From the NCBI RefSeq assembly GCF_965641715.1, contig NZ_OZ282453.1: a stretch of DNA of 64,000 bases; one strand, 5' to 3'. This stretch comes from Escherichia coli (lineage in GTDB: Bacteria > Pseudomonadota > Gammaproteobacteria > Enterobacterales > Enterobacteriaceae). The position numbers are program-made. Every line of letters starts with the position of its first letter. The first letter of the stretch is position 1. Positions 32,801-35,800 of this stretch are shown here, in pieces.

Positions 32801-35800
32801 GAAATTATTTAAATGATATATAAAAACAACTGTGATAACACCAGGGTTGACAACTATTTGCGCAATAATTCCTTTCCTTCAATGATCCAGGCGTTCACTG
32901 TCAGCACCCCATTCAGCCGCATACTGACAGTGAGAAACTGAAAGATTATTGCTGATCCCTGTGGCTGACGAGTCTTTCCCTTAATCGATTAACCAGATTG
33001 ATCGCCAGCCAAACAAGGGCATTAAGCAAATTTATCGTCACAAGCACTTCTCCCAGCCCGGTACTGGGTTTTGCAATAAGGATGACCAGGAGAGTGATCA
33101 GCATAAATGCAATGGAAAAGATGATATAGAGAGTGAAATAATCCAGATTATTACTATTGTTCATGCTACTAATGGCAATCCTGTCAAAACTTTCAAACAA
33201 TTATAGCAAACAAAATAATGAACAATAGTAACAAGAGGCAACGAGCTAATTAGCTGTCTATAATTACACCGCACCATGGCCTTATTGATCAATTTTCACT
33301 CAACCACAACCTTCACCTTCGGTTTAGAAAGGATAATTTTGACCAGGTTTATGTATGTAACAGGTTTATAGAAATAATAACCCTGCTGAAATGTAATATT
33401 ATTTTGATTCAGATAGTCAAGTTGTTCTTTCGTTTCGACACCTTCAGCGACGATACTGATCGAAAGTTTACGCGCCAGATCCAATACACAATCCAGAATT
33501 CGGGTTGATTCTGGGTCTGCGTTGACGCGGCCAACGAAACTGTGATCAATTTTGATATAATCAATATGCAGGTCATGCAGATAAGAAAGCCCTGAGTAGC
33601 CAGTACCGAAATCATCCAGCGCGATGACAAAACCATTTTCATGCAGAATGTTCAACCGCTGAACCAGACTTTCATCAACATTTAATGGCTCACGCTCGGT
33701 AACTTCCAGAACGAGGTTTAAATCGCGGCGGGTAAAACTGTCACGGTAATTTAAGCACTCGTCGACAAACGTCGGCGAAATAATATGCGAGGCGCTAAAA
33801 TTAATTCCAATATGAAAACCTTCCGGCAATTTACTCGCGATAGCGTTCATCTGTCTGGCAACCTGATTCATCAGGCTTTGCGTAAGCGGAACGATTAATC
33901 CGGATTTTTCAGCAAGTGGAATAAATGCCGCGGGTGAAATATATCCACCGTGAGGTTGTTTCCAGCGGGCTAACACCTCAACTCCCCGCAATGTCCCTTC
34001 CCGACCATTCACCACTGGTTGGTAAAAAGGGACGATCTCCCCATTATTTATAGCCCGCCGCAGGATCTCTTCAGGCGTTGCGCTTTTATTGAAATACCTA
34101 TCTAGCAGGAAGGCAGCGGCGCAGGCGATTAACAGAATAAAGATCAAAATCCCAAAGCCTTTATCGATAAGTCTGTAGAAGCTAAAGAGTGGCGGCGAGT
34201 TAAAGATAATAGTGAAATGATATTTTGTGGAGTGAACCTTCTCGGTATAGGGATAATGTCCATTAAGCGTCATCACATCACCCGTAGGTCCAATAATGTC
34301 ATCTGCCACGCGTAATACATACCTTACCCCTTTCAAGGGTACATTAAGCGCCCCGCGAATATGCTGATCACTTATCGTAACCAAAATGCGCGTATCTGCA
34401 AATTGGCTCTGATAGAGCAGGATAGGTAATCTATTAACGGTGTCGATTGCCGGAGCCAACAGTAAATTACTGTCCGGGAAAACAGGAATACGAGACAACA
34501 GGACCCGATTCCCAGGCAGGGATGTACACCAGACTATTCCCTGTTTGAGAATGATGATTGTGCGCAGGTGAGGTTTCAGAGCTGCTTCAGTGCCAAGCTG
34601 ATATTGCTCCTCGAGGTCGCATTCCTTCCCGGCAATGTTAACCGCTGTTTGAGTCGCCTGTGACGCTTCTTCAAGTATATGATTGATATTGTTGGCGGCA
34701 TATCTTGCTCCCGCCAGGTACTCTGCTTTTGCGGAATACCAGAGCTGGATGTTCAAAATAGCGACACCGGTAATAAACAAGCATATCGCAACGAGGATGG
34801 GTATGAGTGTATTGCGCATTTGCTTGTCCCGGCCAAAGGGTTTAATACATGAAAATGCCATTCATTCGCTCGCGCTGGCATCTACAGAGAGCATGGTAGA
34901 TAGCATAAGAAATATCCACGCCGAAGATAAAATTTTCTCCATCTTGATCTAACCCATTAATTATTGAGCATAATGTAGGCAGTATAAAATAAATTAGGCG
35001 GGATATCAGGCGTCAAGAATGGAGAGCGAGAACTCTCCATTCTTGACACCTGATATTGCGGACATATTAAGAAAGCATAACGCCTGAAATGCTCACTTTG
35101 CATCAGCATGGTGATACAGCTGATGTTTATTCTAAAACCTTACTCAAGTTCTAAGAGAGCACGGATTCCCTGTCATTAATAATGATATCCGTTAGTGTAG
35201 TCTTATGCATTTCAATGTACTGCAATATTTGCAGATAGAGATCAGAAAGAATCACACTGGTTTCATCTTTTAAACGCAAGCGTAAAGCCTGATCAATAAT
35301 ATGACTATCAACATACCCATGCGTCATGAACACCTCCCTCTCGAGATTTTTAAACAAAGCACATTGAAAAATAAATCTCTCTGGGATTGAATTGTTCATG
35401 TCAGCCTCGTAGAAATATAACCCAATAAAATTATGCTGTGTATAGTCTAAAGCGACAGACAAAAATAAGATGAATGAGTTTTCTATAAACTTATACTTAA
35501 TAATTAGAAGTTACATATCATCAGCTGTGTATCGCAACACGATTTCCAGTGTTTTTCTAATCACATCAGCTTTGAGAATATCACTTGTTGTTTCCAGGGA
35601 GTGTATCAGACTTAAGATAATATTTTTATTATTAACATTATCGCCTGAAAGCATTAAATTGGTGACAGCCTGCCCTAACACAGCTGACTCTTCTTCTAAC
35701 AAATTACCCGAACTGCGAAAGTAACTTGCTAACGCTTTATCAGTTATTGCATTATGAATTGTAGTATCTTCAAGCATGGTAACCTCTCATCTTACTTATG

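What the first reader, a model, noticed from the sequence alone, without database searches (positions are those of the whole stretch)
32895..32933. 10-bp perfect inverted repeat just downstream of ymgF
tcactgtcag-N19-ctgacagtga sits 13 bp past the ymgF stop with no U-tract. It may be a rho-dependent or structural element rather than an intrinsic terminator.
Basis: seen in the sequence. Interest (0 to 1): 0.2.

Follow-up and report, generated by a model that had tools for sequence, protein, structure and literature searches.

The report
U-less stem-loop after ymgF
A real, moderately conserved hairpin-forming repeat sits just after the small E. coli cell-division gene ymgF; it most likely caps and protects the end of that gene's messenger RNA, which is an ordinary and already described kind of element.

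Summary
TCACTGTCAG-N19-CTGACAGTGA lies at window 32895-32933, starts at the 13th base after the ymgF stop (ymgF is on the minus strand), and has no T/U run on either strand.

The window is an E. coli chromosome: bluF-ycgZ-ymgABC-pdeG-ymgF-ycgH.

The perfect 10/10 repeat is a derived allele, found in about 12% of E. coli genomes. About 77%, including K-12 and three sister lineages, have a T·G at pair 7. About 9% (B2 strains) fixed the same pair the other way, as C-G.

G·U pairs make the hairpin 5.6-10.1 kcal/mol more stable on the ymgF-sense RNA. The arms are invariant where the loop and flanks diverge.

My best reading is a U-tract-less stem-loop in the ymgF 3' UTR that blocks 3'-5' exonucleases and sets the mRNA end. 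Termination itself would occur downstream, perhaps through Rho and H-NS.

Caveats:
- K-12 Term-seq shows no 3' end here, but the gene is probably silent.
- The downstream sequence has no C>G rut signature.
- E. marmotae, E. ruysiae and E. albertii ymgF lack the hairpin.
- The palindrome-perfecting changes are also what quasipalindrome template-switch mutation predicts.

This is an ordinary, low-interest finding.

The parts
32924..32933 (-). 5' arm of the stem on the ymgF-sense strand (TCACTGTCAG, read 32933->32924)
   Evidence: Invariant in E. coli and three sister lineages, except that position 7 is T->C in B2-type strains (473 records).
32905..32923 (-). 19-nt loop (sense: UAUGCGGCUGAAUGGGGUG). 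Its outer 3 nt on each side (32921-32923 with 32905-32907) add U-G, A-U and U-G pairs on the sense RNA only.
   Evidence: Folds. The loop is variable between lineages: 8 of 19 columns vary.
32895..32904 (-). 3' arm of the stem on the ymgF-sense strand (CTGACAGTGA, read 32904->32895). The A at arm position 4 is the derived base; it is G in K-12 and the outgroups.
32946..33164 (-). ymgF coding sequence (72 aa, PF28058), with stop TAA at 32946-32948
32934..32945 (-). 12-nt spacer between the stop codon and the stem
   Evidence: Six of 13 columns are variable between lineages.
32862..32876 (-). Downstream half of a weak outer helix (GAAAG..ATTATTGC) that can pair with 32940-32952 (GCAATAAT-CTTTC, which includes the stop codon). 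It is not conserved outside E. coli.
   Evidence: The 101-nt fold gives -34.5 kcal/mol, z = -3.2. Alignments A1 and A4 show mismatches in CE10, B2 strains and the sister lineages.
32618..32940 (-). 323-bp AT-rich segment of the ymgF-ycgH spacer, present only in E. coli and its nearest relatives. The hairpin lies at its ymgF-proximal edge.
   Evidence: blastn of E. marmotae, E. ruysiae and P0093-lineage loci stops at 32940/41 and resumes at 32617-32619 (alignment A5). There is no match in phages, and the plasmid hits are chromosome pieces.
29898..32546 (-). ycgH autotransporter gene (intact here, 882 aa), the next gene downstream in the same direction
   Evidence: It is a pseudogene in K-12 and in O157:H7 PV15-279.

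Best explanation
The repeat is a stem-loop in the 3' untranslated region of the ymgF mRNA. It acts on the ymgF-sense (window minus) strand.

Shown:
- It folds into a 10-bp core helix. On the sense RNA only, this extends to 12-13 pairs through G-U pairs.
- It starts 13 nt after the stop codon and has no U-tract.
- It is single-copy.
- Its arms are conserved in E. coli and three sister lineages, even where the downstream DNA has been replaced.

Inferred:
- RNA polymerase reads through the hairpin into the ~350-nt untranslated, AT-rich, H-NS-bound ymgF-ycgH spacer.
- Transcription stops diffusely there, probably through Rho, or some of it continues toward ycgH.
- PNPase and RNase II then trim the tail back to the hairpin, which gives ymgF mRNA a defined, protected 3' end.

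The perfect 10/10 repeat in this window is a derived allele of an ancestral 9/10 quasi-palindrome. Its single T·G position has been perfected independently in two directions.

Stability and strand:
- The sense hairpin folds at -21.5 (this allele), -18.1 (K-12), -20.8 (B2) and -16.8 to -18.1 kcal/mol (sister lineages).
- The antisense hairpin folds at -13.1, -8.0, -15.2 and about -9.9 kcal/mol for the same alleles.
- Shuffle controls give z = -4.0.

Conservation:
- All 10 pairs form in all 8 distinct sequences. Nine pairs are invariant, and pair 7 is U-G, U-A or C-G.
- Variable columns are 1/20 in the arms against 8/19 in the loop and 6/13 in the spacer, Fisher p = 0.0037.
- Only 4.7-5.9% of equivalent placements in the 1.8-kb pdeG-ymgF alignment are as conserved.
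- The hairpin stays attached to ymgF when the downstream DNA changes. ycgH is deleted in E. whittamii and SCPM-O-B-8794, E1V33 has a 137-nt extra block, and CT01 has an IS1 5 nt after the stem.

Population counts in 5027 E. coli records:
- U-G 3878, U-A 618, C-G 473, other 58.
- A rare variant turns the first extension pair from U-G into C-G.

Other support:
- It is single-copy, with a median of 1 place per genome, and has no Rfam family.
- The element class is documented. Dar & Sorek 2018 (PMC6061677) found that Rho-dependent E. coli transcripts end right after stable stem-loops that lack U-tracts and protect against PNPase and RNase II.
- H-NS and RNA polymerase bind the ymgF-ycgH spacer (PMC3946193; PMC4447067).
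- Most of the other 13 perfect inverted repeats in this window also sit just past gene ends, and only a few have T-rich tails.
Against: - No plus-strand 3' end at K-12 12192xx appears in the Term-seq or bicyclomycin tables of Adams et al. 2021. ymgF also does not appear in the SMRT-Cappable-seq or RIL-seq supplements I could read. This is uninformative if the gene is silent, but it gives no positive support.
- The first 200 nt downstream are not C>G: C/G is 0.67-1.09. Only +201-298 is pyrimidine-rich, with C/G 1.27-1.62.
- The 19-nt loop is much larger than in typical terminal hairpins.
- E. marmotae, E. ruysiae, a third lineage and E. albertii have intact ymgF without this hairpin and without any significantly stable substitute: z = -1.7 to +0.9 (one search gave -1.3 for a second E. 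albertii locus). The hairpin is therefore dispensable for ymgF.
- There is no double-sided compensatory change.
- All arm polymorphisms are palindrome-perfecting transitions. Quasipalindrome template-switch mutagenesis predicts this without any selection on RNA (PMC7202029, PMC5941160).
Confidence: 0.5

Rival explanations
1. The repeat has no selected function. It is a single-copy quasi-palindrome that arrived with, or at the edge of, a lineage-specific 323-bp spacer segment. It persists because replication template switching tends to restore or perfect inverted repeats. Any effect on the RNA is incidental.
For: - It is absent from E. marmotae, E. ruysiae and E. albertii ymgF loci.
- It sits at the edge of the E. 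coli-specific segment 32618-32940.
- The three arm or arm-adjacent changes seen are all palindrome-perfecting: T->C in the 5' arm, G->A in the 3' arm, and T->C at loop position 1.
- Lavi et al. 2018 report that perfect inverted repeats in E. coli are over-conserved and attribute this to template-switch correction (PMC5941160). The mechanism is described in PMC7202029.
- No transcript 3' end is recorded here.
Against: - The imperfect T·G state has persisted uncorrected in 77% of E. coli and in all three sister lineages, which argues against efficient correction.
- The tolerated imperfection is exactly the one that still pairs in sense RNA.
- The window allele's loop change T->G creates a U-G pair (RNA only) rather than a DNA pair.
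- The arms are far less variable than the adjacent non-coding bases, p = 0.0037.
- A hairpin of -18 to -21 kcal/mol in a 3' UTR will impede 3'-5' exonucleases whether or not it was selected for that.
Confidence: 0.27
2. The hairpin is a weak, non-canonical terminator or pause hairpin. It directly lowers read-through from ymgF into ycgH, acting as an insulator between the two genes. It may descend from a leaky intrinsic terminator whose U-tract E. coli has lost.
For: - In the sister lineages the stem is followed, after 3 nt, by T-rich runs: ACGTTTTTTCA in SCPM-O-B-8794 and ATGTTTTATCC in E1V33.
- E. coli lacks that ~115-137-nt block.
- Dar & Sorek note that terminators may switch type by changing U content.
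- ycgH has its own RNA polymerase and sigma-S binding region downstream, so insulation is plausible.
Against: - E. coli has no U-tract.
- It is not called as terminator-like in E. coli, E1V33 or SCPM-O-B-8794.
- The 19-nt loop and the 3-nt non-U spacer are unfavourable for E. coli RNA polymerase termination (established knowledge of intrinsic terminators).
- No 3' end is mapped here.
Confidence: 0.12
3. The repeat works as double-stranded DNA. It would be a palindromic binding site for a dimeric regulator of ycgH or of an antisense promoter, or a structure-prone site that drives rearrangements.
For: - The half-sites are symmetric and conserved.
- It lies 350-390 bp upstream of ycgH in a spacer that binds RNA polymerase and H-NS.
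- Four independent rearrangement breakpoints lie within 12 nt of the stem, at 32940, 32889-94, 32890 and 32883.
- TCACTGYCAG with up to 1 mismatch is 2.8-fold over-represented in the window, 16 against 5.75.
Against: - I recognise no matching regulator motif, from memory only and not tested against a motif library.
- The 29-bp centre-to-centre spacing of the half-sites is atypical.
- None of the other near-matches is paired as an inverted repeat, and most lie in coding sequence, so codon bias probably explains the excess.
- The conserved asymmetry (T·G) and the extra G-U pairs point to RNA.
- The hairpin is kept in lineages that have lost ycgH.
Confidence: 0.07
4. The functional strand is the opposite one (window plus). 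The hairpin would then belong to an antisense RNA that runs from the spacer across ymgF into pdeG.
For: - K-12 Term-seq records minus-strand (window plus-strand) 3' ends antisense to pdeG at 1218619, 1218676 and 1218730. The last is bicyclomycin-sensitive.
- A weak promoter-like site lies on the plus strand at 32756-32783.
Against: - In the majority allele and all sister lineages the antisense hairpin has a C·A mismatch and only -8 to -10 kcal/mol.
- The 42-aa plus-strand ORF over the repeat (32813-32941) has a different start in K-12, and its upstream part is replaced in the sister lineages.
- The 5' end of the antisense RNA is unknown.
Confidence: 0.04

Closest known systems
U-tract-less terminal stem-loops of Rho-dependent E. 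coli transcripts (Dar & Sorek 2018, PMC6061677)
   Same: It is a stable stem-loop shortly after a stop codon, with no U-rich tail and no A-tract upstream. It is followed by a long untranslated region. It is not a REP element.
   Different: No 3' end, bicyclomycin effect or exonuclease dependence has been measured at this site. The downstream sequence lacks the mild C>G enrichment reported for that class. The loop is 19 nt, whereas that class has loop lengths like those of intrinsic terminators.
Canonical intrinsic (Rho-independent) terminators
   Same: It has a stem of 10 or more bp just downstream of a gene, and its free energy is comparable.
   Different: It has no U-tract, a long loop and only 50% G+C in the stem. 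The consensus scan does not detect it.
REP/BIME extragenic palindromes that stabilise upstream mRNA
   Same: It is an extragenic imperfect palindrome between two co-oriented genes, and the proposed exonuclease-barrier role is the same.
   Different: It is single-copy per genome and unrelated in sequence to a multi-copy family. Rfam does not recognise it.
Quasipalindrome mutation hotspots corrected by replication template switching (Ripley model; Klaric et al. 2020 PMC7202029; Lavi et al. 2018 PMC5941160)
   Same: The ancestral inverted repeat was imperfect at one position. Natural alleles have perfected that position in both possible directions, and one allele extends the palindrome further.
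   Different: That is a mutational process, not a function. Here the imperfect state has remained the majority state across species, and no mutation rates were measured.

Membership tests
Canonical intrinsic terminator | U-rich tract (about 7-8 nt) immediately 3' of the stem | tested here: not met
   The sense tail is ACGCCTGGATCA (2 T in 12) and the antisense tail is GAAACTGAAAGA (1 T). The scan found 0 terminator-like sites in 32400-33400.
Canonical intrinsic terminator | Compact G+C-rich hairpin with a short loop (about 3-8 nt) | tested here: not met
   The stem is 10 bp with 5 G-C pairs and a 19-nt loop. Even with the G-U extension, the best sense fold leaves a multi-nt interior loop.
Protective stem-loop of a Rho-dependent transcript (Dar & Sorek 2018) | Energetically stable stem-loop without a U-tract just downstream of the gene | tested here: met
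   The sense RNA folds at -18.1 to -21.5 kcal/mol in the three common E. coli alleles and -23.5 in a rare variant. z = -4.0 against shuffles. There is no U-tract.
Protective stem-loop of a Rho-dependent transcript (Dar & Sorek 2018) | Steady-state RNA 3' end mapped immediately after the stem | tested here: inconclusive
   The K-12 Term-seq tables (Adams et al. 2021) have no entry at 12192xx in any condition. ymgF is absent from the other readable data sets. The locus is probably not expressed in those conditions.
Protective stem-loop of a Rho-dependent transcript (Dar & Sorek 2018) | Read-through on Rho inhibition, with a rut-like C>G region downstream | tested here: not met
   Only composition was testable. 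C/G is 0.67-1.09 over the first 200 nt, and only +201-298 is pyrimidine-rich. The bicyclomycin response could not be tested.
Protective stem-loop of a Rho-dependent transcript (Dar & Sorek 2018) | Longer 3' tails in pnp or rnb mutants | not testable with these tools
   This needs RNA-seq of exonuclease mutants under ymgF-expressing conditions.
REP/BIME repeat family | Many dispersed copies per genome sharing a consensus | tested here: not met
   blastn with word size 11 found a median of 1 and a maximum of 2 places per genome among 5025 genomes.
Quasipalindrome subject to template-switch correction | Imperfect inverted repeat whose observed mutations increase complementarity and match the opposite arm | tested here: met
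   The ancestral pair is T·G (outgroups and 3878 records). The derived states are T-A (618 records) and C-G (473 records). A rare T->C extends the palindrome to 12 bp. The mechanism itself was not tested.
Structured RNA under selection (covariation criterion) | Compensatory changes on both sides of at least one pair | tested here: not met
   No pair changes on both sides. One pair shows U-G, U-A and C-G. Shuffle controls are not exceeded: 447 of 500 shuffles reach the observed value.

The most novel reading that the evidence does not exclude
The hairpin could be more than an mRNA cap. It may be the terminal structure of a ~320-440-bp DNA segment that entered the ymgF-ycgH spacer in the ancestor of E. 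coli and its closest relatives. It may also act as a recurrent breakpoint and mutation hotspot. Four independent rearrangement junctions lie within 12 nt of it, and its single imperfect pair has been 'repaired' in both directions. That would make it a natural, population-scale example of palindrome-driven genome instability, or the footprint of an unrecognised hairpin-ended mobile element.
Probability: 0.07. Interest if true: 0.4.

Novelty: new member of a known kind. Interest (0 to 1): 0.15.

Why it matters
It matters little beyond annotation. If confirmed, it would define the 3' boundary of the short ymgF transcription unit. It would also add one more example to the known class of U-less protective stem-loops. 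Its modest added value is as a clean natural illustration of one G·U (T·G) pair resolved to U-A in one E. coli lineage (O157/O145 type) and to C-G in another (B2). These alleles could serve as ready-made variants for testing hairpin strength against mRNA stability, or for studying quasipalindrome correction.

Tried and rejected
- Rfam, run with permissive E-values over 31500-34500, gave only chance hits. One was a plant miRNA model landing on a different hairpin.
- The sigma-70 promoter and terminator consensus scan found nothing at the repeat.
- REP or other repeat-family membership is rejected because the element is single-copy.
- A metagenome scan with a 14-base pattern from the ymgF 3' end was too unspecific. 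Only 4 of 120 loci were real, all with known alleles.
- Term-seq, SMRT-Cappable-seq, RIL-seq and ProQ supplements gave no ymgF or ycgH entries, or no files were held.
- I looked for a functional hairpin at the same position in more distant ymgF loci, hoping for covariation. YmgF is confined to Escherichia. The remaining species lack the segment altogether.
- I checked LexA, CRP, sigma-54 and Tn3-end resemblances by eye and rejected them because spacing or ancestral bases do not fit. This rests on my own knowledge, not a database test.
- Half-site enrichment in the window (16 against 5.75) is probably codon bias and involves no second inverted pair.
- The source of the 323-bp segment was not found in phages. 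The plasmid hits are mis-assigned chromosome pieces.
- The plus-strand 42-aa ORF over the repeat and a PGAP 'hypothetical protein' next to it are not conserved.
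Full report
**Observation**

The window is an E. coli chromosome segment. On the minus strand it carries bluF-ycgZ-ymgA-ariR-ymgC-pdeG-ymgF-ycgH. ymgF (72 aa) occupies 32946-33164 on the minus strand, with its stop TAA at 32946-32948.

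The reported repeat is exactly as described. The arms are at 32895-32904 and 32924-32933, matching 10/10, with a 19-nt spacer. Twelve bases separate it from the stop codon. Neither strand has a T-run after the stem, and the terminator scan finds nothing.

It is not a chance feature. Perfect inverted repeats of at least 10 bp with 3-40 nt loops occur 14 times in the window, against 1.5 +/- 1.1 in dinucleotide-preserving shuffles. The 61-nt sense RNA folds at -26.3 kcal/mol, z = -4.0. Most of the other 13 perfect repeats also lie just past gene ends, and only a few have T-rich tails. U-less hairpins after genes are therefore common in this stretch.

**Which strand**

On the ymgF-sense RNA the 10-bp core extends through U-G, A-U and U-G pairs to 13 bp. 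On the opposite strand those positions are C·A mismatches.

| Allele or lineage | Sense (kcal/mol) | Antisense (kcal/mol) |
|---|---|---|
| This window | -21.5 | -13.1 |
| K-12 | -18.1 | -8.0 |
| B2 type | -20.8 | -15.2 |
| Sister lineages | -16.8 to -18.1 | about -9.9 |

All values are for the hairpin alone. If the structure matters, it matters on the ymgF transcript.

**Variation within E. coli**

The locus is single-copy and present in 5025 of 5426 complete genomes. Three alleles account for 4969 of 5027 records:

- **U·G at pair 7** (K-12 type, CTGGCAGTGA): 3878 records.
- **U-A** (this window, O157:H7, O145): 618 records.
- **C-G** (Nissle 1917, ATCC 11775): 473 records.

Three genomes that GTDB treats as separate species all carry U·G, so the imperfect form is ancestral. 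These are E. whittamii, Escherichia sp. E1V33 and SCPM-O-B-8794. The window's perfect repeat is therefore a derived allele, and B2 strains perfected the same pair from the other side. Strain AVS0223 has the B2-type flank with the ancestral T, an apparent intermediate. A rare variant (23CRST011) turns the first extension pair from U-G into C-G.

**Conservation between lineages**

Across E. coli and the three sister lineages, all 10 pairs form in all 8 distinct sequences and 9 pairs never vary. The arms have 1 variable column in 20, against 8/19 in the loop and 6/13 in the stop-to-stem spacer. Fisher p = 0.0037 for arms against adjacent non-coding bases. Only about 5% of equivalent placements in the 1.8-kb pdeG-ymgF alignment are as conserved.

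The hairpin travels with ymgF, not with what lies downstream:

- Homology with the sister lineages ends 1-6 nt after the 3' arm.
- ycgH is largely deleted in E. whittamii and SCPM-O-B-8794.
- E1V33 has an extra ~137-nt block right after the stem.
- Strain CT01 has an IS1 5 nt after the stem.

**Limits of the conservation**

YmgF (PF28058) is confined to Escherichia. ymgF loci of E. marmotae, E. ruysiae, a third divergent lineage and E. albertii lack the hairpin. Their 3' regions have no significantly stable substitute, with z = -1.7 to +0.9 (one search gave -1.3 for a second E. albertii locus).

Their homology with the window stops at 32940/41. In E. marmotae, E. ruysiae and the third lineage it resumes at 32617-32619 (A5). 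So a 323-bp AT-rich block (32618-32940) is specific to E. coli and its closest relatives, and the hairpin is its first feature. Parsimony favours a single gain, but recurrent deletion between short CCTTC/TCTTT repeats is not excluded. The block has no match in phages, and the plasmid matches are mis-assigned chromosome pieces.

**Mechanism**

The best-supported reading is a 3'-UTR stem-loop that defines and protects the ymgF mRNA end. Dar & Sorek (PMC6061677) showed that Rho-dependent E. coli transcripts end precisely after stable stem-loops without U-tracts. These resist PNPase and RNase II, and termination itself occurs further downstream.

Here the downstream ~350 nt are untranslated and AT-rich. 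They are reported to bind H-NS and RNA polymerase (PMC3946193) and sigma-S RNA polymerase (PMC4447067). That is a setting where Rho termination is expected (inference).

A conserved TGCTATAAT (window 33200-33208, minus strand), invariant even in E. albertii, suggests that ymgF is a short unit of its own. By my reading of the sequence it would run about 300 nt from promoter to hairpin (inference).

**What is not shown**

- No plus-strand 3' end at K-12 12192xx appears in the Adams et al. Term-seq or bicyclomycin tables. Nothing for ymgF appears in the other data sets I could read. The gene is probably silent in those conditions.
- Composition gives no rut signal in the first 200 nt.
- There is no double-sided covariation.

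**Main rival**

The polymorphism pattern is exactly what quasipalindrome template-switch mutagenesis predicts, because every arm change is palindrome-perfecting (PMC7202029). Lavi et al. (PMC5941160) attribute the over-conservation of perfect inverted repeats in E. coli to that process. The allele series alone is therefore not proof of selection on RNA.

Three points argue against a purely mutational account. The imperfect state has lasted in most lineages. The tolerated imperfection is a G·U. The window allele's loop change creates a U-G pair, which is an RNA-only gain.

Other rivals are given in the structured fields. They are a weak terminator or insulator, a DNA operator or fragile site, and an antisense-strand element.

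**Verdict**

- It is a new, unannotated member of a known class, dispensable in several Escherichia species, and of low interest.

Noticed in passing
window 33148-33164 and 33218-33234 (minus strand = ymgF sense): A 17-nt inverted repeat (16/17 complementary, 53 nt apart). Its upstream arm, TTGTTACTATTGTTCAT, is complementary to the first 17 nt of the ymgF coding sequence, including the ATG. In a pdeG-ymgF read-through transcript it could sequester the start codon. The upstream arm is invariant across all Escherichia examined. However, the sister lineages carry an uncompensated T->G in the coding arm. The weak Rfam miRNA hit is this hairpin.
   Followed up: partly
window 33200-33208 (minus strand): TGCTATAAT, a perfect extended -10 element about 36 nt upstream of the ymgF ATG. 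It lies in a ~40-nt block that is invariant from E. coli to E. albertii. It is a likely ymgF-specific promoter. The consensus scan missed it because there is no good -35 element.
   Followed up: partly
window 32618-32940: A 323-bp AT-rich block of the ymgF-ycgH spacer is present in E. coli, E. whittamii, E1V33 and SCPM-O-B-8794. It is absent from E. marmotae, E. ruysiae, a third lineage and E. albertii. Its origin is unknown, and it has no phage match and no genuine plasmid match.
   Followed up: partly
window 32883-32941; loci L003-L006, L009, L010, L134-L140: Four independent rearrangement junctions fall within 12 nt of the hairpin. They are the edge of the 323-bp block (32940/41), a 115-137-nt indel against the sister lineages (32889-32894), an IS1 insertion in strain CT01 (32890), and the boundary of a ~180-bp tandem duplication in strain MS1494 (32883). 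I did not test whether this clustering exceeds chance across the population.
   Followed up: no
L005 1770-1782; L004 1770-1782: In the sister lineages the same stem is followed, after 3 nt, by T-rich runs (ACGTTTTTTCA, ATGTTTTATCC) that E. coli lacks. These may be remnants of a leaky intrinsic terminator. The consensus scan does not call them.
   Followed up: partly
window 29898-32546 (minus strand): ycgH is an intact 882-aa autotransporter ORF here and in strain TB06052. It is a pseudogene in K-12 and has an internal stop in O157:H7 PV15-279. It is reduced to a C-terminal remnant in E. whittamii and to 5' and 3' remnants in E. marmotae.
   Followed up: partly
window about 33471-33530 (plus strand); K-12 1218619-1218730 minus strand: Published K-12 Term-seq lists 3' ends antisense to the pdeG 3' region, one of them bicyclomycin-sensitive. 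This implies an antisense transcript that probably crosses ymgF and possibly the repeat. Its start is unknown.
   Followed up: no
window 32813-32941 (plus strand) and 32609-32713 (minus strand): Two small ORFs lie in the spacer. A 42-aa plus-strand ORF overlaps the repeat, has a different start in K-12 and is not conserved in the sister lineages. A 34-aa hydrophobic minus-strand ORF lies upstream of ycgH. Neither was tested for translation or conservation beyond inspection.
   Followed up: no
whole window: TCACTGYCAG with up to 1 mismatch occurs 16 times, against 5.75 +/- 2.4 in shuffles. No other pair is in inverted orientation. This is probably codon or oligonucleotide bias (CTG, GCC, CAG) rather than a regulatory motif.
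   Followed up: no
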